From NCBI GenBank assembly GCA_052327205.1, contig CM126207.1, forward strand, positions 79,670,001 to 79,734,000: DNA of 64,000 bases, given 5' to 3'. Position 1 is the stretch's first letter. The number at the start of each line of letters is the position of its first letter. This document shows, piece by piece, positions 1 through 34,059 of the stretch. This DNA comes from Somniosus microcephalus (Eukaryota). The translations under genes and the position numbers were made by a program. The notes under the pieces are model-generated. The model searched no databases. It saw only the letters and a program-made list of their open reading frames with translations, and was not told the origin of the DNA.

Positions 1-1710
1 AAGACCAGGGACTATTCGACCGGCGAATAATCCCTAGACGTTCCATGGTGGCGAACTCCGCCTTTGCAACCGCCAGCTTGCCAGGATCCAGGCGCCGGGT
101 GCGCGCGTAGACTGGGGGGCCGTTGGTGGTGATATGATGTTCCACACCGTGTTTCGTGGCTGTGGAGGAGAACGTGGGTCTTGTCAGGTCGGGAAATTCC
201 GCGAGCAGACAGGCGAACTCGTCAGGAGTTGGGAAAGCACAGGCCACGGTGTGAGACGTAGTGTTACTGCGGTAACAAGGAATGGAATGGAAGGTTGCCT
301 CGTTGATCAACCGCCGGTTTTTCACGTCGACCAGGAGGCTGTTGGCGCACAGGAAATCCGCACCGAGAATGGGTTGAGAAACCTTGGCCGTAACAATCTC
401 CCAGTGAAACCGTTGCCCCCCTGAAACAAACCTCCACCCGCCGTCTGCCGAAAGTCCGAATCGCGCCGCCATTAGCCGCTTCAAGGGCGAGGCCGTGCCT
501 TCCCGCCTGAACATCGAGGGGGGACGCTGGCAATATGCTGCACTGCGTTCCGGTGTCGCACAGAAAACGACGGCCGGAGAGCGAGTTGGTAATGAAAAGC
601 AACTTGCCTGCGTTGCCGATCACCATGGCGGACGCAGGACGCCCGTTAGACCCGTTCTTCATTATTCGCAGCTGTTTTTTTTGTTGGGGAAAGCTGCAGG
701 GAGGGCAGCACCGTCGCGCCTTCGCGCCAAACTGTGCGTGATAGAAACACAGCCTTGTTGACTGACGAGCTGTGGCGGCGTCTGTGAGGGAGGGGAGCGT
801 CGTGGCGGCTTCCGTGGGGGATGGGCGCCTCGTGGCGGTGCAGTACTGCTGCGTAACCGCAAATATTTTGTCCGCCTCTGCCGCGAGTGCCGCACAGTCT
901 TCCACCTCAGATCTGGCCAGGGCAGCTTGCACCTGTTCAGGTAGCTGGCTGAGGAATAATTCCCTGAAAAGGAAGCATTCCGGTTCGGAGCCCAGGAGTG
1001 TGAGCATTTGGCTCATCAATTCCGAAGGCTTGGAGTCCCCCAGGCCGGGCATGGCGAGCAATCGACATGCGCGCTCTGATTTAGTGAGCCTGAAGACCAG
1101 CAGCAACCGCGCTTTGATGGTGTCATACTTGCGCTCCGTTGGAGGGTTCTCGAGGAGGCTGATGATCCGCGAGGCGGTGGAGCTTTCGAGTGCCGAGACC
1201 ACGTAGAGGTATCTAGTTTGATCTGCCAATATGCCTCTCAGGGCGAATTGTGCTTCGACCTGGATGAGCCACGAGGATGCCTGCTGCTCCCAGAACTGTG
1301 GCAGCTTCAAAGAAACGGCGTTGGCCTCCATGTCGTGTTCATTTTGCGAAAACGTTTGCAAAAGACGGGGTCACCAATGTAGGAATTATCTCTAATTCCT
1401 ATCTAAGAACCGAGTTCAACTCAGGCGTTCAAACAAATGAGTTTTAATGCAGAACTAACGAGTTTAAACAGTTTGTACAGGAGAACCACGAAAACAGGTC
1501 TTTGCTGGTCGGAGGCTCCACGAGGACTGCCAGGGCGGTCCCGTGGATGGCGTCATGATGTCATCACGTTTCTCCTGCGCTTGGGTGGTCACGTGATTAG
1601 TGGCATGACGTCATCGCGTTTAACCGCGCTTTGCCGCAGTCTTAAAGGGACCGCGCCCCGTGCATGCAAACAGTATGTACAAACACAGAAATCACTAACA
1701 GACTGGTACA
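1..1710 (-). mobile_element. Ty3/Gypsy LTR retrotransposon, CsRn1-like; 5' part only (5' LTR, PBS, gag, protease, start of RT), continues off the left edge
   Basis: On the minus strand the LTR ends ...ACA at 1378, followed by a 1-nt spacer and PBS TGGTGACCCCG (1376-1366, complementary to the tRNA-Trp 3' end). Gag begins SLKLPQFWEQQASSWLIQVEAQF and has a CHCC motif (CFYHAQFGAKARRCCPPC); protease FLCDTG follows. After a frameshift, the RT N-terminus (HGVEHHITTNGPPVYARTRRL...ERLGIIRRSNSPW) occupies ~1-160. The outer LTR boundary (~1700-1710) is approximate. Confidence 0.9.
264..1361 (-). pseudogene. Gypsy gag-protease ORF, frameshifted before RT
   Basis: 365-aa ORF with Gag N-terminus, CHCC knuckle and aspartic protease DTG motif. 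Similarity is lost after ...RVEVCFRG and RT resumes in another frame. Confidence 0.85.
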
Positions 1711-17824: not shown

Positions 17825-20035
17825 GTGTCCTTAAAAGCTCTTGCCGTACCTTCACATGGGCAACTTTAACCCAGGGATTTATAACAATGATAATACAGTG
17901 TCTAAGTTAAAGATTGATAACCATACTTAGCGTACATAACATTTCCAGTGGGTATTACACTCCCCCCCAACCAAATATAGGCATGTCCCCATGACTAATG
18001 AATTTTACACATAAGTGGTTGCATGCTTCCCAACCATGTATAAAGGGAGGTAACATATCGAACCGTAGGGGCTATCATTACACTTGGCACTCCTAGTGTA
18101 CTGTATGCCAATCTTTCAGGAACCTTCTTAACTCGCTGTGAGCTCCTTATTTCAGATACCCGGTCTTCAGTTCCTTCAACTACGTTGGAGGCGTTGGTTC
18201 CTTTGTTATCATGCCTTTCAGTCTCTTTTATCTCCTTCTCGGAAGCATCTGGTTCTTCCCAGACCATGCCCAAGTCTGAGCTAAATGGTTCAGACAATTC
18301 ATCCAGATTCTGTCCTTTGCGTCTTTCTGGGAGGTCGTACCATAGATCCCATTCTTCATCTTCCGACTCATCAGGTTCCTCATGATCCACACACTGTGTC
18401 ATGGCTTTTCTGTCTTCTGGAACAAAGTTTTCCTGGTTTCTCGTTTTTTTCCTTCTTCTTCTCTGCAGGGTTCTCCTACAAGGTGTCGGCTCATTATCCG
18501 CTGGCGGATCCAGACGCACTTGCTGTCCCAATGGCAGGATATGATTCCGGTGCAGTATTTTTATGGGTCCATTCCCACCTGCAGGTTTTAGCCGAAACAC
18601 AGGTAGTTGTGACATTTGACTTTCAACAATGTAAGGTGTAGAAGCCCAGCGGTCTGCTAACTTATGTTTCCCTTGAAGTCCTAGGTTCCGTATGAGAACT
18701 CAGTCACCAGGCATGAGTTGGGAAAAACGGATCTTCTGGTCATACCTCTGCTTATTTCCTTTATTCTGTTTGGCAGAAACAGACTCAGCAAGTTCATAAG
18801 CAGCTTGCAATTCCTTTCTCATGTCAGACACATACTTGAGGTAAATTCTCTGTAATGTGCCATCACTGGATACTCCGAAACACAAATCCACCGGCATCCT
18901 CGCTTCACGTCCAAACATGAAGTAGTACGGTGAAAAACCAGTAGCGCCATTTCGGGTACAATTATAAGAATGAACAAGATGTCCAATGTGCCGACTCCAC
19001 TTGTTCTTTCGCTTTGAATCCAGCGTTCCAAGCATGTCTAACAAAGTACGGTTAAACCGCTCAGGTTGAGGATCTCCCTGAGGATGGTATGGAGTTGTTC
19101 TTGACTTCTCAATCCCGAGCATGGACAACAACTCATGTATAAGTCTACTTTCAAAGTCTCTACCTTGATCACTGTGTATTCGCTTTGGCAGTCCATAGTG
19201 GATGAAGTATTTCTCCCACAACACTTTGGCAACGGTGGATGCTTTCTGATCCTTTGTGGGAAAAGCTTGGGCATAGCGAGTATAATGATCTGTAATGACC
19301 AAGACAGTTGCGGTATTGCTGGAATCGGGTTCGATGGACAGAAAATCCATACAGACAAGGTCTAGAGGTCCATCACTTTGCATGTGAAACAGAGGAGCAA
19401 CTCTTTTAGGTAAAGTCTTTCTCTGGACACAGCGTGCACAGGACTTGCAGAACTCCTCAACCGCAGACTTCATACGCGGCCAATAGAATCTGTCCTTGAC
19501 CAACCCATAGGTCTTATCTACTCCCAGATGACCTGCGTCATCATGCAAAGACTTCATCGCTATTTCCCTGTACTTTTCAGGCAGGACCAACTGTGAATGA
19601 CATGGTTTAGTGGGTGGGTGAGTGATTCTACACAACACTCCCTCTTTAATTTCCAAGTGGTCCCATTCTCTTAGGAGCAGATGACAGTCAGGATGTTTTG
19701 ATTTGTCGATCTGTGTAATATCACCCAGACGGAGAGCTGAAAACACCTCATGAATACAGGGATCCTCCTGTTGTGCTTTGGATATTTCAGATGAACACAA
19801 CATGGGTAAGTTTTGTACATCCAAACTGGAAAGGTTGCAAAATGCCTGGGGAACAGCATGCATTGACGCTCCCAAGTGGTCAATCTCTCGGGCATGAAAT
19901 GAATTCTTTGGTCCAGATACCACGGACATCTGACACATTACTTTCACATCTGCTGAAGCAACATCTTTCCACTCTGGTTTCTGGTAGTGTGGGCGACGAG
20001 ACAGAGCATCTGCGTCAATGTTCTGGTTCCCAGGG
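17825..20035 (-). mobile_element. Truncated Ty3/Gypsy element: end of RNase H, integrase, PPT and start of 3' LTR
   Basis: PGNQNIDADALSR at ~20030, then integrase 18700-19947 (HDDAGHLG..CARC; CMDFL, HSDQG, PERFNRTL). An in-frame TGA at 18700 (GD*VL, probably CGA>TGA) precedes the tail ORF 17995-18615. PPT TTGGGGGGGAG is followed by TGTAAT at 17959. Confidence 0.9.
18700..19947 (-). pseudogene. Gypsy integrase (HHCC + DDE), nonsense-truncated
   Basis: 415-aa ORF with complete zinc-binding and catalytic motifs. Confidence 0.88.
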
Positions 20036-21434
20036 CAATGGGTCAGCCACTAGAGATGCATGACACCCGACGAGAAGCATCACCCGCCGGGAGCATACAA
20101 TAGGACATTGCAGGTGTGCTCCCCATGGAAAGAAAAGTGCTAGTGATTTTCCAATATGCATTCCCAGTGAATAAGTTTCCCAACCTGTAGCAATCATTTG
20201 GAAAACTCAGCTCTTGTTTGTTTACATTGGCCTAATCATTTCCTGAGTACAGACAATGGCACTAGTGACAAAGGCTGGTTGCTTCTCACTGAAGCTGTGG
20301 ATATCTCTGGGCAGTTTTGTGTATTGGCTATCCTCTTTCACAAACACAAATAAACTATTTTGTTTAGCCATAGCTATCTGAATTTTTAACTCATACAAAG
20401 GGAGGTAGGAGAGGGAGAGCAGGTCAACAAGGATTATCATACCTGCCATTGTGCCAGTTACTGCTTAGGGAACAGGGAATGGGTGGTGAGTGGGAGTGGG
20501 CAACTGTTTGCCCAGTTTTCTAATGAGCAGTCTTGGCAAGGGAGCAGGAGTGCTATACTACTTGAATTTTGTTTAGAAGTTCACTGTCATCATGAAAAAG
20601 GGTGTTTGGAAGTATTTTTATGTTTCCCGAAGAAGAAACAAGTGTCTCATTACATTCCTGATGACATTATAGGGCTGATGTTACAAAATTAAAACAGAAA
20701 ATGCTGGAAACATTCAACAGGTCCAGCAGCATCTGTGAAGAGAGAGAAATATAGTTAATGGCCCGTTTCTGTGGTCAGCAGCGAAGCAACGAAGAAAACT
20801 GCCACAAAGATCTTGTGATCTCTGTGGTAAAAACTTTAGCTTTCTCGACCTTAATTTGATTGTAGTGTTGTCAAAAAGGGATCTCCACCATACAGCAGCA
20901 GTGATGACATCAAGCTGTCTAAGCAGCCAATTACATTGAAGAATTCTCACAGACAGCAAACAAGGAAATAAAAAGCACCTTTTATCATTCACTTTTAAAA
21001 AATTTTTTACAAAGGATGAAATGAAGATTGGGACACACACATGGGGTTAAGGTAGAAGCAAACTTTAAATACATTTAAATGTTTTAAATAATTTTAAAAA
21101 TCTAGTAATTGTTTTTATTCATAATGGAGAAATGTGACATTCCACAAATATAAAATTAGTTTTTCAGTGCCAGAACAGCTGTTCAGCAGTTAAAGCCCCA
21201 GTTACACCTCTTTCAACAAGGCTTATCTTTTTATGGGGAGGTTTAACAGTGATATTAGAGCAGAAAAGGGGAAGTGTTGGTCATTTCAATTGATTTCACT
21301 GATTGCCGGCTATGGGGAGTTCCACAGCGCAGCCTGTGGCAGAGCAGGGAACGACTGACCGCAACTTCAGGATTTCCGCGTTTATCTGCGCATGCGTTAT
21401 ATCCTGAAGTTACAGTCGGTTCCAAAGGGGTAAT

Positions 21435-21647
21435 TGTTAGATCCGTGTATCTTAATGTTGTGTCCTTCAATAATCAGACAACAGACTGCAGGGAACGATT
21501 CAACAGGTGTTTACTGAATGAGGGTTACTCTAGAACTAAGTGTACAGACCACTACTCAGGGTTTATATACAGGTGTGGTCACTGCCGGTACTACAGTATA
21601 CAGGAGCTGTAAAAAGTAGTTCTCCCCTTAAAGGTACATACATTACA
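21435..21647 (-). repeat. 3' LTR of the Mag-like Gypsy element
   Basis: Direct repeat of 26368-26580, adjacent to the PPT. Confidence 0.95.
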
Positions 21648-21756
21648 ATTCCTCCCCTTTTAGATTAACAGTACCATAACACTCATTTAACAATTAAATA
21701 TCAAACTAATTACAATTAACACTTTTAACATGCAACATTAGCTGAAAATAGTCTAT

Positions 21757-24700
21757 TTATAAATTCAGTCTTTGGGGAGGCTTCCTGATCCTTTCTGGAT
21801 AGCGCCTTTCCCGAGTGTCTTGCTCTTGGTGCGGAGGCGATTCTGGCCCCCTGTCGTCGGTTGGTTCATCAGCTTCCGATGCTACTGTTTCTGGGGTAGA
21901 TGCTACCTGTACGTCGGGTTCATCACCAGGTACGTATGGGCGAGGCATGGGGTTGACTTGTTCCTGTGAATCTAGGATCTGGTCAGCATGGCGTCTCACG
22001 ATGCTCTCCCCAACGTCCACTGTGTACATTAGTGGGCCCTGCCGTGTGCATATCGTTCCTGGCTGCCATTTTTCTGTTCGGTAGTCGCGGGCCAAGACTG
22101 GTTGCCCTACATTGAAGCTCCTTGTTGGCTTCTCATGGATGTGCTGGAATTGCTTACTCTCAACATCTGAGCAAATCCAGGCGAGATCTTAACCTTCGGT
22201 TAAAGAACGTCATGGCTGGGGCCTGGTTGGTGACTGCATGTGTCGCATTCCGGTAGGCGAACAGGAAATTGTCCACCTTGTGCTGCAGCGGAATGTTGTC
22301 ATTGTACATAGCCTTTATTGCTTTCTTAAAGGTTTGTATGAACCTCTCAGCCAATCCATTTGTGGCTGGATGATACGGGGCGGATGTGTAATGCCTTACC
22401 CCATTCCTTTTCATAAATCTTCGAAACTCTTCGGACACAAACTGTAGTCCGTTATCAGAGCAAATCTGCTCTGGCAAGCCGTTCCTGGCAAAAATGGGCC
22501 GTAGGACTGCAATAGTTTTCTCCGTGGTGGTGGAGGACATTTTGATCACATCAGGCCATTTCGAGTGCGCATCCACGGCTATTAAAAACATTGAGTCCAT
22601 GAATGGACCAGCAAAATCAATATGCACCCGTTGCCATGGAGATGAGGGCCACTCCCATGGGTGTAGAGGGGCATGTGGTGGTGCATTTTGGACCTTCTGG
22701 CATCCTGAGCAGCTCTTTGTCAGGTCCTCGATTTGCTGATCGATCCCCGGCCACCACACATAAGCCCTAGCAAGGCTTTTCATTTTCACTCCCCCCAGAT
22801 GACCTTTATGTAGCTCATTGAGCACTCTCTCCCTTAACTTGGGTGGAATTACCACTCGGGATCCACACATCAATGTCCCCTGGCATACTGACAGCTGTTC
22901 TCTTCTGGATGAGAATGCTGGCAACAGTGAGTCGCCATGCGCTGGCCATTCCTTCACCGTCAAATCATATACCCGAGACAGTGTCGGGTCATTTCGGGTC
23001 TCCTTCTCCTATACCAGCGTTAGTTACTGGCAAGCATTCAATTATAGTCGAATGAAATATTTCGACAGGATCCACTGCTGGTGCTTCCTCCGCAGTAGAC
23101 AGTGGCAGGCGTGATAGCCCATCAGCGTTTCCATGCTGTTTCGTGCCCGTATACTCGATTTCATATTGGTGCGCCCCTAGAAAAAGGGACCATCTTTGTA
23201 GCCGTTGCGCAGTCATCACCGGAACGCCCTTCTTTGGATTAAAGATGGAGACAAGTGGTTGGTGGTCAGTCAGCAAGGTGAACTTCTGCCCGTGCAGATA
23301 GTGATTGAACTTTTTCACTCCCCACACTAGGCTGAGGGCCTCCCTGTCAATCTGGGCATAGTTATGCTCGGCTGAGGTTAGTGATCGTGACGCAAAGGCT
23401 ATTGGCCTCTCTGAGCCGTCCGAGAATTTGTGCGACAGCATCGCTCCAATGCCGTAGGGTGACGCATCACATGCCAACCGAATTGGTAATGGCGGGTTGT
23501 AATGGGCCAATACCTCTTTCGATGTGATTAGTGTTTTGCTCTTCTGGCAAGCTCGTCTACATTCGTCACTCCACTTCCATGGCACCCCAGTTTGCAGTAG
23601 GGTGTTCAGTGGGTGTAGTATTGTAGACAAATTTGGCAAGAACTTATGGTAGTAGTTTACCAGCCCAAGGAACGACCTCAGTTGTGACACATTTTCCGGT
23701 GCTGGAGCCTTGACTACTGCCTCAATCTTCTCTGGGGACTTATGTAACCCCTCTTTATCGATAACGTGGCCACAATACGAGATCTGTTTTCCAAAAAACT
23801 CGCATTTGGGGCGGTTAGCTCGGAGCCCATATTCCTGTAATCTAGTGAGCACCTGCTCCAGGTTGGCAAGGTGATCACTGTCATTTTCGCCTGTGACCAG
23901 GATGTCATCCAAATAACACTGGGTCCCTGGGATCCCTTGCAGGACTTGTTCCATTGCCCTCTGCCAAATAGCCGGAGCTGATGCTACCCTGAATACCAGC
24001 CGGTTGTATTGGTAGAGACCTTTATGGGTGTTGATTGTGAGGTTTTTTTTTTGATGCTTCTTCTACCTCCATTTGCAGATACGCCTGGGCCAGATCAATC
24101 TTAGTGAAGCGTTTCCCTCCAGATAGCGAGGCGAAAATATCTTCAATCCGCGGAAGTGGATATTGTACGGTGTGAAGGACCGGGTTCACTGTTACCTTAA
24201 AGTCCCCACAGATGCGAACCTTCCTTGGTTCCCCAGGCGTGCTGCTCAACGACTTTTTCATCACAGGGATGATGGGTGTAGCCCACTCGCTCCAGTCTAC
24301 CTTGGACAGTACATCTGAACGTTCCAGACTCTCCAGCTCTGCTTCGACGGCTGGGCGGATCGCATAAGGTACCGGTCTGGCCTTAAAAAATTTTGGGCTT
24401 GCATTTTCTTCAATTTTAATCATCGCTGTCATGCCTTTTAGTGTTCCGAGTCCTTGCTGGAACACTTCTTTCGCGTCAGTTAGGAACTTTGACAGTCGCC
24501 CAGGTGTGACGTCGTCATCCTTTTTGTCAGCCACAGTCAGTGCCTGTATGGAATGCCAATCTAGCTGTATCTTCCGGATCCATTCACGTCCTAGTAGTGG
24601 TGGTCCTCCATCTGGCAATACATATAGGTCCATTTTTGGTGTTTCCTTGCCATTATATATAACGTTCACCCTTATTTTTCCTTTGGGGTAGACTTTTTGC

Positions 24701-25694
24701 CCCGTGTACGTCTTCAAGACAATCTTTGTATCTCTCAAGGGTATATGTGAGAATAGCCACTTGTAGTCCCTTCAGTTTATGACTGTTAGGGCTGATCCTG
24801 TGTCCAATTCCATTTTCACTTGGACTCCTGCTATCTTGAGCGTGACCCAGATAGTTTGGTGATCCTCCATTTTGATCACATTATGTAGTTTCAGACAACC
24901 CAGCTCCTTGCTTCCGGAGTCTCTATCACTCTTCTGTTCGTCTGAACTACTCTCCATCACCTTATGTACCTTCTTGTACTTCTCCTGTGGAGATTTCTTG
25001 CTGCTGGTTTTCTTTCCCGACCTGCAGACTCTTGCTATGTGTCCTACTTTTCCACACTGTCTGTACACTTTGTCCTTGAACCAGCAATCATTATGGTCAT
25101 GTGTTGTTCTGCCGCAGCGATAGCACTTCACTGTTCCGTATGACATTTCATTTGTGCCATATTCTTGCGGTCTCCATTGTATCTCTGCAGCGCCCGTGCT
25201 GCTGCTTCGTGTGATACTGCAATGCTGAAAGCCTTGTCCAGCGTAAGATCCTTTTCTGATAGAAGCCATTTCTGGGTTCCTTCACTTTGAAGCCCACACA
25301 CAAACTTGTCCCTTAAAGTATTTGCTAGTCCCGTTCCAAACTGGCAGTGTTTCGATAGCTTGCGCAGTTCCATTAAATACTCAGCATTACTTTCATCTTT
25401 ATGCTGGTTCCTTTTGTGAAACTTAAATCTTTCTGCTATCAGCAGCGGTGTGGGGTTTAAGTGGTCCTGTAGGATTGACACTATGTTTTCAAAATCCTTT
25501 TCTACTGGCTTCTCTGGGGTTACTAGGTTTCATAGTAAGCCATACATTTTTGCACCCATTGAATTCAACAATACCAGCGCTTTCTTGTCATCTGGCACTT
25601 CATTCGCCTTGCAGTATACTTCTATGCGTTCGACATATGTCGTTCAATCTTCGACTTCATTGTCGAACGCTGTGATACTGCCACTCTTCGGCAT
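21757..25694 (-). pseudogene. Gypsy gag-pol pseudogene (gag, PR, RT, RNase H, IN)
   Basis: Collinear ORF pieces 25128-25481, 24772-25269, 24022-24738, 22989-23954, 22160-22963 and 21757-22095. Confidence 0.92.
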
Positions 25695-25713
25695 TTTTGG
25701 GTGTGGTTAGACT

Positions 25714-26090
25714 GGCTTAAAATGGCGTCTCCCGCGCTTTCCTTTCTTCCCCGCTGCGGTTTAAAATGGCGTCTCCCGCGCTTTCCTTTCTTCCCCGCTG
25801 CGGCTTAAAATGGCATCTCCTGCGCTGCTGCCATCGCCGCTCTTGGCGGTCCTCGTGGCAAATGGCAGCGCCCTCTCTCCTCCGTTGATGCTGCTCGGCC
25901 CTTGAACACCGGCTGCGCTCTGCTCTCTCTCGTCTCTCTCCCTCGTTGACGCTGCTCGGCCCTTGAACACCGGCTGCGCTCTGCTCTCTCTCGTCTCTCT
26001 CCCCCATTGACGCCGATCGGTCCTGAACACCGGCTGTGCCCTGTGCGCTCTGCCCTCTCTCTCTCCCCCGTCGATGCTGCTCGGCCTTTT
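25714..26090. repeat. Tandem repeats in the Gypsy 5' leader (~44-bp x ~2.5 and ~61-bp x ~3)
   Basis: Units TTAAAATGGCGTCTCCCGCGCTTTCCTTTCTTCCCCGCTGCGG and GCTGCTCGGCCCTTGAACACCGGCTGCGCTCTGCTCTCTCTCGTCTCTCTCCC... Confidence 0.85.
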
Positions 26091-26367
26091 TCTGTGCCGC
26101 TCGGTCGGGCTCTAGCCCGTCGCTGTCCGGGAAGGGTCTGCGCAGTACCTGTTGCCAGCCCGTTTCGCTGGACCACCGTGACTGGAAAGCCAAGCCTGGC
26201 TCTCGACAGCCTCCCCTGCGATGCTCAAATCTCCGCTGGATGACTGGGCGGTTGCCCGTGGTCAACGCCCGTGCTTCTGGACTCGACCTTCTTCCACAGT
26301 TCTCCAGGAGCAAATCCCTGGGAGGTGATGCAGAGTTGCAGGTAGGTTCGAACTTGCTCGTCGCCAC

Positions 26368-26580
26368 TGTTAGATCTGTGTATCTTAATGTTGTGTCCTT
26401 CAATAATCAGACAACAGACTGCAGGGAACGATTCAACAGGTGTTTACTGAATGAGGGTTACTCTAGAACTAAATGTACAGATCACTATTCAGGGTTTATA
26501 TACAGGTGTGGTCACTGCCGGTACTACAGTATACAGGAGCTGTAAAAAGTAGTTCTCCCCTTAAAGGTACATACATTACA
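26368..26580 (-). repeat. 5' LTR of the Mag-like Gypsy element
   Basis: Direct repeat of 21435-21647, adjacent to the PBS. Confidence 0.95.
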
Positions 26581-27759
26581 GTAATGACGGCGAACATTGA
26601 CAGTTTTGCCATCATTACCACCGCAAAATTCGGGTCAATGTTTCAGGTTGATGACCTTTCATCAGAACTGAAAGAAGTTTGAGAGTTAACAGTTTATAAG
26701 CAAGTACAGAGCCAGATGGAAAATGGGAGGGTGGGGATAGGGGTGAGGGGTTAATTATGCGCGCTGCTCTCACCCAGCGGCCATGCATTTCAGAAAACCA
26801 TCGGGATTCTACGTTCATTCATTCTAGAGACAGAAGCACGCATTCATAAAATCGGACCTTATATGTGAATGACAGGATGATGGGTTTTGACATTACTGCC
26901 TGATATGCAGACAAATGAAAAAGAGGCTTTCTAAACAGTTTGTGGGAAACGGTGTCCTTTAATTAATATTTAATCATTTTAATTGGCGAATGTTTAGGAG
27001 CTCTGCCACAATATTAGCCATTTCCACTTTCTGATTAGAAGTTGCAGCTACCAAATGAGATGGGAACAAATAACTCCTCTTTCGGCCACTTTAGTTATGT
27101 GTTGGGTTTTTTGAGTGGTTGATGGATGAGCAATTACAGGCTGCAATTTCACTATTTTTGTGAAATCAATGTGTGTACACTTAAACAATCATTGTTACTA
27201 TAACAAAAGCAGAATACTGCGGAAAATCTGAACATTGTTCCAATGTTTTACACACTGCCTTTTTCCAGAGAAATGCTCCAGTGCAGCAGGCACTGAGATC
27301 TGAATGCAACACACACGTTTGCGATTTTATTGTTCAATATACTTCAACAGCTGAATCCACCCACTGGTACCGGCTCACTGCACTCCCGGAACGCTCTCTA
27401 TTCTGCTTCCATGAATAGCCCCCGTTTCCTCAGTTGTGATTTTCCAGCCGCTCAGACTGAAAGTGCCGTTTCGAATTTGAAAGCTGAAATTTAAAGATGG
27501 TAATTTTCGCTGTCCGGGTTTTACTGAAAGCTACGAATCCCCCGTTTACCAGGGTTGTGTTTTCTGTCACAGAAACTGAACTTCACCAGCATGAGATTTC
27601 GGATAATTTCATTCGAATTCTTCCTCCCCCTGCTTCAATGAAACTTCAGACGCTGTGCCGAAAGATGCTCTCTCTGTGTACTAAACTATTTAAAATAATA
27701 TTTGCCATTTCGTTACAAATAGCACACAGGGAATTTTCCTTCTCTGCAATTGCTCTCGA

Positions 27760-28615
27760 GTTTTGCAGTGTACAGGGAGTGTCTGTGTGTTTTGCAGTGT
27801 ACAGGGAGTGTCTGTGTGTTTTGCAGTGTACAGGGAGTGTCTGTGTGTTTTGCGGTGTACAGGGAGTGTCTGTGTGTTTTGCAGTGTACAGGGAGTGTCT
27901 GTGTGTTTTGCGGTGTACAGGGAGTGTCTGTGTGTTTTGCAGTGTACAGGGAGTGTCTGTGTGTTTTGCAGTGTACAGGGAGTGTCTGTGTGTTTTGCAG
28001 TGTACAGGGAGTGTCTGTGTGTTTTGCAGTGTACAGGGAGTGTCTGTGTGTTTTGCAGTGTACAGGGAGTGTCTGTGTGTTTTGCGGTGTACAGGGAGTG
28101 TGTGTTTTGCGGTGTACAGGGAGTGTCTGTGTGTTTTGCAGTGTACAGGGAGTGTGTGTTTTGCGGTGTACAGGGAGTGTCTGTGTGTTTTGCGGTGTAC
28201 AGGGAGTGTGTGTTTTGCAGTGTACAGGGAGTGTCTGTGTGTTTTGCAGTGTACAGGGAGTGTGTGTTTTGCAGTGTACAGGGAGTGTGTGTTTTGCAGT
28301 GTACAGGGAGTGTCTGTGTGTTTTGCAGTGTACAGGGAGTGTCTGTGTGTTTTGCAGTGTACAGGGAGTGTCTGTGTGTTTTGCAGTGTACAGGGAGTGT
28401 GTGTTTTGCAGTGTACAGGGAGTGTCTGTGTGTTTTGCAGTGTACAGGGAGTGTCTGTGTGTTTTGCGGTGTACAGGGAGTGTGTGTTTTGCAGTGTACA
28501 GGGAGTGTCTGTGTGTTTTGCAGTGTACAGGGAGTGTCTGTGTGTTTTGCAGTGTACAGGGAGTGTCTGTGTGTTTTGCGGTGTACAGGGAGTGTGTGTT
28601 TTGCAGTGTACAGGG
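27760..28615. repeat. 29-bp minisatellite, left arm (~30 units; 25-bp variants)
   Basis: Unit GTGTCTGTGTGTTTTGCAGTGTACAGGGA repeated head-to-tail. Confidence 0.97.
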
Positions 28616-28904
28616 TGATGTGCCTCAATTATTCCGAGACTCGGAGTTAGCAGAACAAAAGTAAGGCTTTTATTAACTCAGAACATAACACGTAAAATAG
28701 AGAGATGTCTTCCTTCAGGAGGCTGATGCCCGACTGAACTTAGATTACAAAGGAGCCAGGTATGGGCGGAGCCCTGCACACAACCAGTTCCAGCACATTC
28801 CAATACATAATACATGAGGACTGGGGGAAGGGAAAAGACACAGAAAGCAGGCAGTTACAAGACACAGAAAACAGGCAGTGATGAATGGAATATATTTCAT
28901 CACA
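28616..28904 (-). repeat. 3' LTR (289 bp)
   Basis: Direct repeat of 32708-32996. Confidence 0.97.
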
Positions 28905-29043
28905 TTCACCCCTTCTATAGATTTAGTCTGTTCGGGGGTTTGATAGCCCTCTGCGACCGACGTGGCTGTTGTGGTGCCGCGGGTGTCGGCTGGGTGTCCC
29001 CGGTAGCCTCCTGGGTCTCTGCCGGGGGTGCCGCCGGGGTTGT

Positions 29044-30580
29044 TCAAGGGGTAGTTGGTGGGGGTGCCGTTGGTCGATGTTCTTCCGGGGGTGATGAAAG
29101 AATAGTGGGTGGGTAAGGGTTGCTGTGATCGTCGTCGCTGCTATTGCCGTGGTTGTTGTCGATGCCGGCTGGGGCGACGTCTTTTATGGACACGGTGTCC
29201 TCCCTTCCGTCGGCGTGCCGGACATATGCGTATTGGGGGTTGGCGTGGAGTAGGTGTACTGGCTCCACGAGAGGGTCCGTCTTGTGGCCCCTCACATGCC
29301 TTCGCACGAGTACCGGACCTGGGGTGGAGAGCCATGACGGCATGGATACGCCTGAGGTGGATTTCCGAGGAAAGACAAACATTCGTTCATGAGGCGTGGC
29401 ATTAGTGGCCGTACACAATAGCGACCGTATCGAATGGAGCACATCCGAGAGGACTTCCTGCCAGCGGGAGATAGGGAGGCCCTTGGTCCTTAGAGCTAGA
29501 GTGACTGCTTTCCACACTGTCCCGTTCTCTCGCTCCACCTGGCCGTTACCCCGGGGGTTGTAGCTGGTGGTACGGCTCGTGGCGATCCCCTTGGACAGCA
29601 TGTACTGGCGTAGCTCTTCACTCATGAAGGACGCCCCCCTATCCGTGTGGATATAGCTCGGCATACCGAACAGGCAGAACAGGCTGTTGAGGCATTTAAT
29701 GACCGTGGCGCTGGTCATGTCTGGGCAGGGGAAGGCGAATGGGAAACGGGAGTATTCGTCCACAATGTTCAGGAAGTAAACATTGCGGTCGACGGACGGG
29801 AGGGGGCCCTTGAAATCTAAGCTGAGCCGCTCGAAGGGCCGTGTAGCTTTGATTAAGTGGGCTCTATCTGGGCGGTAGAACCGAGGCTTGCACTCAGCGC
29901 AAGTGCGGCAGTTCCTGGTCAGAGACCGAACTTCCTCAATCGAGTAGGGTAAGTTACGGGACTTTATGAAGTGGAACAGCCGCGTGACCCCTGGGTGGCA
30001 GAGGTCGTTGTGGAGGGTCTGTAGCCGATCCTCGGTGGCGCTGGCACACATCCCTCGTGAGAGGGCGTCAGGGGATTCGTTAAGGGCCCCTGGCCGGTAA
30101 ATTATGTCGTACTCGAAAGTGGAGAGCTCGATCCGCCACCTAAGAATCTTATCATTTTTAATCTTCCCCCTCTGTTTATTGTTGAACATAAACGCTACCG
30201 ACCGCTGGTCGGTAAGTAGGGTGAAGCGTTTGCCGGCTAGGTAGTGGCGCCAGTGGCGCACTGCCTCCACGATGGCTTGGGCCTCCTTTTCCACGGAGGA
30301 GTGTCTGATCTCGGGGCCTTGGAGGGTCCTCGAGAAGAAAGCTACGGGCCGCCCCGCCTGGTTGAGGGTGGCCGCCAAGGCGAAGTCGGACGCATCACTT
30401 TCCACTTGAAATGGAGTGTTCTCGTCCACTGCCTGTAGCGTGGCCCGCTCAATATCCTGCTTAATGCTTTTGAAGGCGGCGTGGGCCTCAGCAGAGAGCG
30501 GAAAAGAGGATGCTTTCAAGAGGGGGCGGGCTTTGTCGGAGTAGTTGGGGACCCATTGGGAATAGTAAGAAAATAACCCC
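29044..30580 (-). CDS. Gypsy RNase H-integrase (continuation of pol after the frameshift)
   Basis: GLFSYYSQWVPNYS, ESDASD, EKEAQAI, TDQRSV, PDALSR; HNDLCHPG..CRTC; SLDFKG, HTDRG, VERENG. Confidence 0.9.
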
Positions 30581-32681
30581 TTTTCAGGGCTTTGGGAGTG
30601 TTGGGCAGGGGCAGCTCCCGTAGGGGGCGCAATCGGTCGGGGTCTGGTCCGATTTCCCCATTCTCCACCACGCTGCCCAGTATGCAGAGGCGCGTGGTGT
30701 TGAAAACGCACTTATCCTCGTTATAGGTGAGGTTGAGTTTTTGTGCGGTTTTCAGGAACCTCTCGAGGTTCGAGTCGTGATCCTGCTGGTTGTGACCGCA
30801 GATGGTGACGTTGTCGAGGTAGGGGAAGGTTGCCTGCAAGTGGTGGTCATCGACCATGCGATCCATCTCCCTCTGAAAGACCGAGACCCCGTTCGTCACC
30901 CCAAAGGGGACTCTGAGGAATTGGTAGAGGCGTCCGTTCGCCTCGAAGGCGGTGTACGGGCGGTCCTCTGGTCTGATAGGGAGCTGGTGGTACGCTGACT
31001 TGAGGTCGATGGTGGAGAACACCCGGTATTGGGCGATTTGGTTCACCATTTCTGATATGCGGGGTAGCGGGTAGGCGTCTAGTAGGGTGTACCTGTTGAT
31101 CGTTTGACTATAGTCGATCACCATCCGTTTCTTCTCGCTACCCCTTACCACTACCACTTGGGCGCGCCACGGGCTGTTGCTGTGTTCAATAATGCGCTCT
31201 TTCAGGAGCCTGTCTACCTCGGTCGCGATAAACCGCCTGTCCTCCCAGCTGTACCTCCTGCTTTTGGTCGCTATTGGCCGGCAGTTAGGGGTAAGGTTCG
31301 CAAATAGCGAAGGCGGCTTTACCTTCAGGGTAGCCAGACCGCACACTGTGAGGGGCGGCTGGGACCCACCGTACTTGAGCGTGACGCTTTGGTGGTTGCA
31401 CTGGAAATCCAAACCCAAGATCACGCTCGCACATAGATTCTTCATGATTAATACTTTAAAATTATCATACACAGTTCCGTTAACGCACAATTGTACCGTG
31501 CAGTAACCCAGAATGGTCGATGTCTGGGTTTTATCGGCCATAGAGATGGTACCCTGAGCAGGGACCACCTTTAGGGAGAGTTGTTGTGCCAGTTCAGGGT
31601 GGATAAAACTCTCCGTGCTTCCACTGTCAATTAAGCATTTAACCCGGCACCCGTTTACCTCGATGTCCACCATTGATTTGGATAGCGGATGCGGCCTGGT
31701 CTGGTCCACTGTGACCGATGCCACTGTAGGGCCCTGATCGAGACAAGATGGCGTCCACGCTGTCTGCTCATAAGATGGCGGACCCCACGAGGTCGGGCAA
31801 GATGGCGTCCAAGATGGCCACTCCCACGGCGCACACGCGGCGGTGGCAGGTTTTCCGGCGGTTGGTTTTCTGGCGGGGTTCCCTCTGCACACCTTCCCGA
31901 AGTGCCCCTTCTTACCGCACTTAAAGCAGGTGGTGCCTTTCGCCGGGCACAGGTTTTTGGTGTGCTTTGGCTGCCCGCAGAAGTAGCAGTTGGGTCCTTG
32001 ACGCATTGCGGCTGTCGTAGGGCTTCTGGGGGGAGAGCTGGGCCCCGCCGGTGTCGGGCTGCCGGGCGGGGAAGATGCCTTCCAAGATGGCGGCGCCCTC
32101 GGCGCACACGTGGCGGCGTGGGCGGCGCGGGCTGAAGAGTAGGCGTCCGAGTTTCTCTGGGCCATCTCCAGGGACCGCGCGGTGTCCGCAGCCTGTTTCA
32201 GGTCCAACTCCGTTTTTTCCAGCAGTCTTTGCCGGATGTGAGTGGAGCTGAGGCCTGTGATAAAGGCATTGCGAACAAGCTCGTCGGTGTACACTGCGGC
32301 TTTTACATCTCGGCACTTACAGTCCTTGCCAAGCTTTTTCAGGATGCTTAGGAACTCCTCCACCGATTCCCCAGGTCGCTGTGCGCGAGTAGCGAGTAGA
32401 TGCCTAGCATACACCTCATTCGTAGGCTGCTGGTAATGCGCCTTTAAGGTGTTGCAGGCGGCCAGGTACGTATCGGCGTCTTGGATGAGGGGGTAAACCC
32501 GGTGGCTTACCCAATTCCGTAGCATTCCGAGTCTCATCTTCGCAGTGTCCGTAGCGTCTTTGACGGCTGCGGAATTGTCCAGGAAGAATTCCATACAGTC
32601 AAACCAGTGTCCGAAGCGTGCTGATGCGTCCGGAGCATGTTGATCCAAATCCAAACGTTCGGGTTTCAGGAGTTGATCCAT
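30516..32681 (-). CDS. Gypsy gag-protease-reverse transcriptase ORF
   Basis: MDQLLKPERLDLD..., CYFCGQPKHTKNLC, CFKCGKKGHFGKVC, LIDSGS, SPWRAQVVVV, IDLKSAYHQL, PFGVTNG, YLDNVTICG. The frame is lost after ...PKALKR. Confidence 0.9.
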   Translation of the reverse strand: MDQLLKPERLDLDQHAPDASARFGHWFDCMEFFLDNSAAVKDATDTAKMRLGMLRNWVSHRVYPLIQDADTYLAACNTLKAHYQQPTNEVYARHLLATRAQRPGESVEEFLSILKKLGKDCKCRDVKAAVYTDELVRNAFITGLSSTHIRQRLLEKTELDLKQAADTARSLEMAQRNSDAYSSARAAHAATCAPRAPPSWKASSPPGSPTPAGPSSPPRSPTTAAMRQGPNCYFCGQPKHTKNLCPAKGTTCFKCGKKGHFGKVCRGNPARKPTAGKPATAACAPWEWPSWTPSCPTSWGPPSYEQTAWTPSCLDQGPTVASVTVDQTRPHPLSKSMVDIEVNGCRVKCLIDSGSTESFIHPELAQQLSLKVVPAQGTISMADKTQTSTILGYCTVQLCVNGTVYDNFKVLIMKNLCASVILGLDFQCNHQSVTLKYGGSQPPLTVCGLATLKVKPPSLFANLTPNCRPIATKSRRYSWEDRRFIATEVDRLLKERIIEHSNSPWRAQVVVVRGSEKKRMVIDYSQTINRYTLLDAYPLPRISEMVNQIAQYRVFSTIDLKSAYHQLPIRPEDRPYTAFEANGRLYQFLRVPFGVTNGVSVFQREMDRMVDDHHLQATFPYLDNVTICGHNQQDHDSNLERFLKTAQKLNLTYNEDKCVFNTTRLCILGSVVENGEIGPDPDRLRPLRELPLPNTPKALKRGYFLTIPNGSPTTPTKPAPS

Positions 32682-32707
32682 AGTGTTGAAAATTGAGTTA
32701 ATAAAAT

Positions 32708-32996
32708 TGATGTGCCTCAATTATTCCGAGACTCGAAGTTAGCAGAACAAAAGTAAGGCTTTTATTAACTCAGAACACAACACGTAAAATAGAGAGATGT
32801 CTTCCTTCAGGAGGCTGATGCCCGACTGAACTTAGATTACAAAGGAGCCAGGTATGGGCGGAGCCCTGCACACAACCAGTTCCAGCACATTCCAATACAT
32901 AATACATGAGGACTGGGGGAAGGGAAAAGACACAGAAAGCAGGCAGTTACAAGACACAGAAAACAGGCAGTGATGAATGGAATATATTTCATCACA
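32708..32996 (-). repeat. 5' LTR (289 bp)
   Basis: Direct repeat of 28616-28904; contains GC box CTCCGCCC and AATAAA on the minus strand. Confidence 0.97.
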
Positions 32997-33650
32997 CAGG
33001 GAGTGTCTGTGTGTTTTGCAGTGTACAGGGAGTGTCTGTGTGTTTTGCAGTGTACAGGGAGTGCCTGTGTGTTTTGCAGTGTACAGGGAGTGTCTGTGTT
33101 TTGCAGTGTACAGGGAGTGTCTGTGTGTTTTGCAGTGTACAGGGAGTGTCTGTGTGTTTTGCGGTGTACAGGGAGTGTCTGTGTGTTTTGCAGTGTACAG
33201 GGAGTGTCTGTGTGTTTTGCAATGTACAGGGAGTGTCTGTGTGTTTTGCAGTGTACAGGGAGTGTCTGTGTGTTTTGCAGTGTACAGGGAGTGTGTGTTT
33301 TGCAGTGTACAGGGAGTGTCTGTGTGTTTTGCAGTGTACAGGGAGTGTCTGTGTGTTTTGCAGTGTACAGGGAGTGTCTGTGTTTTGCAGTGTACAGGGA
33401 GTGTCTGTGTGTTTTGCAGTGTACAGGGAGTGTCTGTGTGTTTTGGGGTGTACAGGGAGTGTCTGTGTGTTTTGGGGTGTACAGGGAGTGTCTGTGAGTT
33501 TTGCAGTGTACAGGGAGTGTCTGTGTGTTTTGCAGTGTACAGGGAGTGTCTGTGTGTTTTGCAGTGTACAGGGAGTGTCTGTGAGTTTTGCAGTGTACAG
33601 GGAGTGTCTGTGTGTTTTGCAGTGTACAGGGAGTGTCTGTGTGTTTTGGG
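32997..33650. repeat. 29-bp minisatellite, right arm (~23 units)
   Basis: Same unit as 27760-28615, resuming in register after the TSD. Confidence 0.97.
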
Positions 33651-34059
33651 GCTACATTTGTTAATAATCCACAAGTTAAATGTGAGATAATGCGGCAAGA
33701 AAAAACAGACACCATTATTTTAGAAATCAACTTTAACGTACAGATTTCTCACGACTCTTTTAATGGGTCCTTACGAGAAAGACACTAACTTGTTATGGAG
33801 CTACTATACACATAGGTATGCATTCATATACATTTTCTGAAGCCATTTTATGATTAATCGTATATTCACTTTATGAGGTCAATGTCTATTTAAGTGTACA
33901 TTTCCATACATAGTTTACGAGGTCACTGCTTGATTCTTAAAAATGGTGATTGGGTTTCCCAGCTGACAAAAAAATACATACAGGGCTCCAAAATCCAGGA
34001 CAAGTGTGGCAGAATGGGTACCGCTAAGCTCTGCCCCGAACCTGCGGGAGTACATAAGA

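What the first reader, a model, noticed from the sequence alone, without database searches (positions are those of the whole stretch)
32694..32772. Young Gypsy element with no tRNA PBS: the PBS position is a perfect 13-nt complement of its own LTR poly(A)-signal segment (candidate self-priming system)
Seen: on the element (minus) strand the 5' LTR ends ...GGCACATCA (32708). After a 1-nt spacer comes TTTTATTAACTCA (32706-32694), not TGG. The exact reverse complement, TGAGTTAATAAAA (32772-32760), lies 53 nt upstream inside the LTR and spans the AATAAA. The two other Gypsy elements here (PBS at 1376 and 26366) have the same 1-nt spacer followed by canonical tRNA PBSs, so the geometry is a true PBS position. 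Established: S. pombe Tf1 primes minus-strand synthesis from its own transcript 5' end instead of a tRNA. Inference: this element folds a 13-bp stem whose cleaved 3' end (...AAUAAAA-OH) primes reverse transcription. The same stem would hide the 5'-LTR poly(A) signal while leaving the 3'-LTR copy exposed, coupling priming to suppression of premature polyadenylation. LTRs differing at 2/289 positions and an intact TSD show it transposed recently with this structure. I recall self-priming animal Gypsy groups being catalogued in Repbase, so novelty at clade level must be checked.
Basis: partly seen in the sequence, partly recalled or inferred. Interest (0 to 1): 0.88.

Follow-up and report, generated by a model that had tools for sequence, protein, structure and literature searches.

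The report
Retrotransposon primed by its own leader
This young jumping gene and tens of thousands of relatives in the same genome carry, where a borrowed tRNA normally binds, a perfect match to their own likely poly(A) signal, and mis-copied relatives suggest that they start DNA copying with a 55-70-letter piece likely cut from the front of their own RNA, a longer primer than the known yeast self-priming element uses.

Summary
Observation confirmed: the 13 nt after the 5' LTR perfectly complement the LTR segment ending in AATAAAA (0 of 20,000 shuffles). It is a clade trait: 30 of 30 family copies share it, about 35,000 junctions genome-wide fit it, and 0 of 60 gag-selected copies of two other families have a TGG tRNA site. 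Over 26 variants the arms pair in 330 of 338 positions with one G-U, as expected if the site is rewritten from the primer. New here: in 416 aberrant copies the site runs on into inverted LTR. Of 90 measured, 57 stop 18-56 nt from the arm end, with a cliff 30 nt below the TATA box. The primer is therefore likely the RNA's 5' fragment, from start site to poly(A) hexamer, not a Tf1-type 11-mer. Chromodomain (sushi-type) elements here show Tf1 geometry and no run-on (0 against 901). The clade is a separate, animal-wide, chromodomain-less Gypsy lineage. Cleavage and poly(A) masking are untested; RNA reads were inconclusive. The scan noted this clade's self-complementarity before in other genomes.

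The parts
32708..32996 (-). 5' LTR, 289 nt, TG...CA
32835..32843 (-). Degenerate TATA-like box, 84 nt before the arm end (same distance as clear TATA boxes of sister families); would put the start near 32813
   Evidence: function inferred
32824..32830 (-). Initiator-like TTCAGTC; predicted start site at 32827 (preferred, because run-on copies of the nearest sister family reach 62 nt)
   Evidence: inferred, not mapped by reads
32760..32772 (-). Primer arm: 13 nt that pair with the PBS; predicted 3' end of the primer at 32760
32761..32766 (-). AATAAA hexamer inside the arm (likely poly(A) signal)
   Evidence: sequence; hexamer variants at the arm end in all clade families examined; use as poly(A) signal not shown
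32714..32759 (-). R-U5 stem-loop predicted to stack on the primer duplex
   Evidence: z -6.1 for 32774-32680; weak or variable in other families
32707..32707 (-). 1-nt spacer after the LTR end
32694..32706 (-). Primer-binding site, complement of the arm, no TGG
30516..32681 (-). gag (two zinc knuckles)-protease-RT reading frame, ATG 26 nt after the LTR; RT motif YLDN
29044..30711 (-). RNase H-integrase reading frame (separated from the first by a frameshift in this copy); no chromodomain
28905..28916 (-). Polypurine tract before the 3' LTR
28616..28904 (-). 3' LTR; its copy of the arm has no PBS downstream
32997..33001 (-). 5-bp target-site duplication, upstream copy
28611..28615 (-). 5-bp target-site duplication, downstream copy

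Best explanation
The element belongs to an animal-wide Gypsy lineage without chromodomain whose primer site pairs with its own LTR, and it likely primes reverse transcription with the 5' fragment of its own RNA, predicted to run about 55-70 nt from the start site to the end of the poly(A) hexamer. Steps: (1) transcription starts 40-55 nt above the arm (inferred from TATA/Inr spacing and run-on copies); (2) the arm pairs with the PBS across a 31-59-nt loop (pairing shown by covariation); (3) the RNA is cut just 3' of the hexamer, most likely by the element's RT-RNase H as in Tf1 (inferred by analogy only); (4) the new 3' end primes minus-strand DNA, and the stretch between hexamer and poly(A) site serves the first strand transfer (inferred); (5) plus-strand synthesis copies the attached primer and so rewrites the PBS (supported by Watson-Crick-only covariation and run-on copies); in roughly 0.6-4% of junctions it runs on up to the RNA's 5' end; (6) the same duplex would hide the 5' poly(A) signal while the 3' copy stays free (untested).
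For: Family trait: 30 of 30 copies. Genome-wide pattern 35,475 hits against 1,128 for the reversed control; a second pattern 3,223 against 35. The complement extends 6 or more bases beyond the searched letters in 29 of 30 loci. Gag-selected families: 20 of 30 with 13 bp and 29 of 30 with 10-13 bp, none with TGG. Pair counts on 26 variants: covariation 0.485 against 0.146 shuffled, 0 of 500 shuffles; slid controls 0.06-0.11; pairing falls from 24 of 26 at pair 13 to 9 of 26 at pair 15. Arm duplex 330 WC, 1 G-U, 7 mismatches of 338. Seven loci from other collections show it with hexamer variants, the PBS following AATAAA, ATTAAA and AGTAAA. Run-on copies: 57 of 90 end at 18-56 nt, 22 of these at 50-56; TATA starts at 83-85; 31 of the 57 resume in internal element sequence in sense and 9 at an LTR end. 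Sushi-type control: TATA 30 nt above the arm, 0 run-ons against 901 normal junctions.
Against: No RNA 5' end, cut site or poly(A) site was seen: reads of a related organism lie on both strands and give no pile-up; the one drop in depth (run X8, 32770-32789) is nearer the arm than the predicted start and is absent in X7. No run-on copy was found for the window's own family (0 of 33). The prediction test in a family with a more distant TATA gave only 3 short products of 30 (23, 30, 60 nt; limit predicted about 72), too few to show a shifted cliff. Four of 90 run-ons end between the cliff and the LTR start without visible LTR continuation (70, 121, 153, 202 nt). One clade member (L169) shows no complement (4 bp) and L166 has a mismatch within the hexamer. 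How normal copies stop at 13-15 nt is unexplained.
Confidence: 0.72

Rival explanations
1. Plain Tf1-type self-priming: transcription starts at or just above the arm, the primer is the first 13-15 nt, and run-on copies come from DNA fold-back.
For: The duplex ends sharply at 13-15 bp; a TTC motif often precedes the arm; depth in run X8 drops at the arm's 5' edge; 22 of 90 run-ons reach the LTR start, so DNA fold-back does occur.
Against: TATA boxes lie 70-87 nt above the arm start, none at 30 nt; short run-ons are bounded at TATA+30 and pile up there (binomial P about 1e-33 against uniform breaks over U3); elements with true Tf1 geometry give no run-ons.
Confidence: 0.14
2. The arm-bearing primer comes in trans, from a second element RNA or a short LTR transcript, rather than from the same molecule.
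For: Run-on copies show that an RNA starting at TATA+30 was copied, not that it was the same molecule. LTR reads are abundant on both strands.
Against: Arm and PBS match perfectly within each close subfamily although sibling subfamilies with other arms coexist; the short conserved loop and stacking stem favour folding in cis.
Confidence: 0.08
3. The stem is only a poly(A)-masking or translation-control hairpin; priming uses a host RNA or another site.
For: The hexamer is always inside the arm, and the gag ATG follows closely.
Against: A hairpin kept by selection alone should show G-U intermediates: 1 in 338, against 60 of 331 in the MFE-predicted loop stems (prediction favours G-U, so a soft control). 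More than 20 arm sequences exclude one host RNA. No TGG in 60 gag-selected copies. Run-on copies need the arm to have been copied from the PBS end.
Confidence: 0.04
4. The 3' LTR copy of the arm, near the RNA's 3' end, folds back and primes.
For: It has the same sequence; four long run-ons continue into the polypurine tract (L143, L325, L348, L349).
Against: A 3'-derived primer has U3 and coding sequence upstream, so run-ons would have no limit at TATA+30.
Confidence: 0.02

Closest known systems
Tf1/Tf2 of Schizosaccharomyces pombe, Tj1, and the Tf1/sushi group of chromoviruses
   Same: PBS complementary to the element's own LTR; no tRNA; a stem between primer and PBS; primer copied into the PBS end of the cDNA (PMC7175516, PMC4600332, PMC11042837, bioRxiv 10.1101/2022.12.06.519325; passages read).
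   Different: No chromodomain and a separate RT clade; 13-15 bp rather than 11; arm internal rather than the first bases of the RNA; arm ends at the poly(A) hexamer, whereas in sushi-type elements of this genome the hexamer lies about 70-75 nt below the arm.
TAR (Houba/Osr-1) Ty1/copia and Tcn1 elements of plants, predicted self-primers
   Same: Self-priming predicted from PBS-LTR complementarity; TAR shows it outside the Tf1/sushi group (PMC6317226, passages).
   Different: Copia superfamily or chromovirus; plant hosts; primer geometry not compared here.
Mag lineage and unnamed mollusc/annelid Gypsy clades (MolGy)
   Same: Animal Gypsy elements; the double zinc knuckle resembles Mag Gag (recalled, no call).
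   Different: No reference sequences were available, so no clade name could be tested; the mollusc paper does not mention PBS or priming (PMC6238403, term search of text and 5 supplements, one picture PDF unread). A tRNA-primed element (L083) falls outside the clade.
Saci2/lennie Gypsy elements of flatworms
   Same: Single gag-pol frame, variable PBS between families.
   Different: tRNA-Leu PBS four bases from the LTR and 4-bp TSD (PMC4558846 passages, PMC12471100 sections 6, 22); here 1-nt spacer, no TGG, 5-bp TSD.
HIV-1 poly(A) hairpin (recalled)
   Same: AAUAAA hidden in a stem at the RNA 5' end.
   Different: There the hairpin is local and present at both ends and has no priming role; here the partner (PBS) exists only at the 5' end.

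Membership tests
Ty3/Gypsy LTR retrotransposon | TG...CA LTRs, TSD, PPT, order PR-RT-RH-IN | tested here: met
   best solved relative is Ty3 RT
Tf1/sushi group | Chromodomain at the integrase C-terminus | tested here: not met
   none in P0002 or in the Pfam lists of the 120 best relatives
Tf1/sushi group | RT groups with chromoviruses | tested here: not met
   quick IQ-TREE, 97 rows: the clade (57 rows, support 100) excludes the 14 chromodomain-element rows; Tf1 itself was not in the tree
Tf1/sushi group | PBS complementary to own LTR, no tRNA site | tested here: met
Tf1/sushi group | Self-primer is the first bases of the RNA | tested here: not met
   indirect: TATA spacing and run-on limit in sister families; not mapped by reads
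Tf1/sushi group | Three-duplex 'pretzel' structure | tested here: inconclusive
   primer duplex plus R-U5 stem predicted for this copy; loop stems variable over families; third duplex not examined
Tf1/sushi group | Primer released by RT RNase H cleavage | not testable with these tools
   needs biochemistry
tRNA-primed Gypsy elements | PBS begins TGG, complementary to a tRNA 3' end | tested here: not met
   0 of 30, 0 of 30, 0 of 30
Saci2/lennie | tRNA-Leu PBS and 4-bp TSD | tested here: not met
Mag lineage / MolGy clades | RT-RH tree placement with named references | not testable with these tools
   no reference sequences held

The most novel reading that the evidence does not exclude
A large, animal-wide Gypsy lineage evolved self-priming independently of Tf1/sushi with a different design: the capped 55-70-nt leader, cut exactly behind the poly(A) hexamer, is the primer, so one duplex starts reverse transcription, silences the 5' poly(A) signal and leaves just the hexamer-to-tail stretch for strand transfer; aberrant genomic copies record the primer's full length and map the start site without RNA data.
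Probability: 0.55. Interest if true: 0.86.

Novelty: new variant of a known kind. Interest (0 to 1): 0.76.

Why it matters
Self-priming has been shown only in fission-yeast Tf1 and assumed for its chromovirus relatives. A second, unrelated and very abundant animal lineage (relatives named from rays, catsharks, a sea anemone, a crinoid, an octopod, a nematode and a fluke) would show that escape from host tRNA arose again with another primer architecture, tied to 3'-end processing. Such elements lack the site that tRNA fragments target, and tRNA-based LTR annotators would mislabel their PBS. The run-on copies give a sequence-only way to read primer length and start site from any genome.

Tried and rejected
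Single-copy mutation of a tRNA site: rejected. RNA start or poly(A) end from reads of a related organism: inconclusive; no RNA holder listed for the stretch itself. A splice junction inside the LTR as primer source (lead from scan notes on BEL/Pao): no joint listed over 32600-32870. Rfam: one chance-level match, E 0.83. Viral contigs: nothing confirmed in two scans. The metagenome scan confirmed only 5 of 601 stretches because the confirming query was Gag alone. Of 13 loci from other collections, 7 had the complement, 1 (L169) did not, and 5 lacked a usable 5' end (L167, L168, L175, L176, L177). TTC before the arm as start site: dropped. Saci2 as clade name: rejected. Ten paper searches listed no paper describing self-priming in a non-chromovirus animal Gypsy clade; Repbase Reports and most subscription journals are not held, and three primary or review papers on Tf1 were not available, so prior cataloguing cannot be excluded. 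The careful tree did not finish; the quick tree is used, and RT hits under 130 aa were left out.

Full report
Observation. The element lies on the minus strand, 32996-28616, with 289-nt LTRs differing at 2 positions and a 5-bp TSD, inside a 29-nt satellite. After the LTR's CA and one spacer base, 13 nt are the exact complement of LTR positions 225-237, which end in AATAAAA; the loop is 53 nt. None of 20,000 shuffled LTRs gave 13 nt. The two tRNA-type elements of the window have the same spacer, then TGG, and match their own LTR over 4 nt only. The element encodes Gag, protease, RT, RNase H and integrase without chromodomain; this copy is frameshifted near 30,580.

Family and clade. All 30 fetched copies (of 40 scored, 1,238 candidates) carry the same arm and PBS. 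A second family picked by Gag alone (55% identity) has a different, compensated pair: 20 of 30 with 13 bp, 1 with 12, 3 with one PBS change, 6 rearranged or deleted, none with TGG; six copies change the hexamer to ATTAAA and the PBS follows. A third Gag-picked family gives 13, 12, 11, 10 and 7 bp in 17, 5, 5, 2 and 1 of 30, none with TGG. A pattern holding only the hexamer, the LTR end and its complement finds 35,475 places against 1,128 for the reversed control, and the free A/T position agrees on both sides in 100 of 100 listed; a second pattern finds 3,223 against 35, agreeing in 99 of 100 listed. Beyond the searched letters the complement continues for 6 or more bases in 29 of 30 loci. In 400 kb of evenly spaced stretches, the 3 clade elements with a 5' end all had it. 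Of 13 loci from metagenome and MAG contigs, 7 have it, 1 does not, 5 lack the 5' end; their hosts are unknown. In an RT tree (97 rows, quick search) the clade has support 100 and excludes both chromodomain elements and tRNA-primed ones of the same genome.

The pairing looks templated. On 26 variants, 13 of 16 tested pairs change on both sides, the covariation score is 0.485 (shuffles 0.146, 0 of 500; slid 0.06-0.11), and pairing drops after pair 13 (some double changes come from a one-base register shift between families, and the rows are related). The 13-bp duplex has 330 Watson-Crick pairs, 1 G-U and 7 mismatches. Stems held by selection usually pass through G-U (established knowledge); a PBS rewritten from the primer at each cycle would not. 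For Tf1, about half of the cDNA keeps a copied PBS at its 3' end (PMC11042837, passages). In all families examined the arm ends exactly at the 3' end of the hexamer, with loops of 31-59 nt. For this copy an R-U5 stem stacks on the duplex (z -6.1); in other families it is weaker.

Where the primer begins. In Tf1/sushi elements the self-primer is the RNA's 5' end (PMC7175516 and bioRxiv 10.1101/2022.12.06.519325, passages). Chromodomain elements of this genome fit: 10 of 15 fetched had LTR pairs, 7 with a perfect 11-bp PBS-LTR match, a TATA-like box 30 nt above the arm and the hexamer well below it. The clade of the finding does not: TATA boxes lie 70-87 nt above the arm start. Aberrant copies test this. 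In 416 places the PBS runs on into inverted LTR (control 0). I measured 90 of the first 100 listed: 57 end 18-56 nt from the arm's 3' end, 22 of them at 50-56; 22 reach the LTR start; 11 lie between, of which 7 continue in LTR after an indel and 4 do not (70, 121, 153, 202). TATA starts at 83-85, so the limit equals TATA+30. Of the 57, 31 resume in internal element sequence in sense and 9 at an LTR end, as expected for a plus strand that copied the primer too far and then transferred wrongly. In two other groups (33 run-ons against 5,646 junctions; 30 measured) the 9 short products end at 18-65 nt, at or within initiator-like motifs at about 67-68; none came from the window's own family. A group with TATA at 100-105 gave 27 long and only 3 short products (23, 30, 60) of 30, consistent but weak. 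Sushi-type elements gave 0 run-ons against 901 junctions. The long class fits fold-back of the plus strand on its own LTR.

What is shown and what is not. Shown by sequence: the complement, its conservation, covariation, the absence of tRNA sites, the bounded run-ons, the separate clade. Inferred: start site, priming by the 5' fragment, templating of the PBS. By analogy only: RNase H cleavage. Untested: that the hexamer is the working poly(A) signal and that the duplex masks it. RNA reads of a related organism cover the element on both strands but show no start or poly(A) pile-up. How most copies end at 13-15 nt (a second cut or trimming of the overhang) is open.

Comparison and novelty. It works like Tf1 but is not a member of Tf1/sushi (no chromodomain, other RT clade, internal arm). 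Self-priming is also predicted for plant TAR copia and Tcn1 (PMC6317226, passages). Saci2/lennie are tRNA-primed with 4-bp TSD. PMC3601003, PMC12440569, PMC7472051, PMC8220671, PMC5443660, PMC6238403 and PMC5341516 were seen as term passages only and describe no such clade. Earlier notes of this scan report the same kind of clade in other genomes; a look-up for the start-site and run-on evidence showed nothing. Verdict: real, clade-wide, a new variant of a known kind; interest 0.76.

Noticed in passing
window 21435-26580 (-): Complete Gypsy element with 213-nt LTRs (98% alike), 5-bp TSD, tRNA-type PBS, several frame breaks.
   Followed up: partly
window 1-1700 (-): 5' part of a third Gypsy element with a TGGTGACCCC-type tRNA PBS; runs off the window start.
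   Followed up: partly
window 17995-20049 (-): Integrase-bearing fragment of another Gypsy element, without LTR pair found.
   Followed up: no
window 27490-28615 and 32997-33750: 29-nt satellite array split by the element's insertion.
   Followed up: partly
L261-L272 (G000): Sushi-type chromodomain elements with an 11-bp self-primer and AGTAAA as the apparent poly(A) signal; about 900 junctions.
   Followed up: yes
L364-L393: In the family with the distant TATA box, 27 of 30 run-on copies are long LTR fold-backs, at roughly 4% of junctions, more than in other families.
   Followed up: partly
L108, L115, L118, L124, L128, L133, L134: One family has a hypervariable glutamine/proline-rich Gag N-terminus directly after the PBS.
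   Followed up: no
L170-L177: Animal-type retrotransposons sit in contigs labelled as bacterial MAGs, likely host contamination.
   Followed up: partly
window 29299/32708, run X8: Eight reads join the LTR end to the integrase end, skipping 3.4 kb; possibly an internally deleted copy.
   Followed up: no
clade RT: The catalytic motif reads YLDN in 35 of the 57 clade rows, YLDD in basal members.
   Followed up: partly
L169:290-400: Clade member with no self-complement; an ATG follows the apparent LTR end and a DNA-transposon-like end lies upstream.
   Followed up: partly
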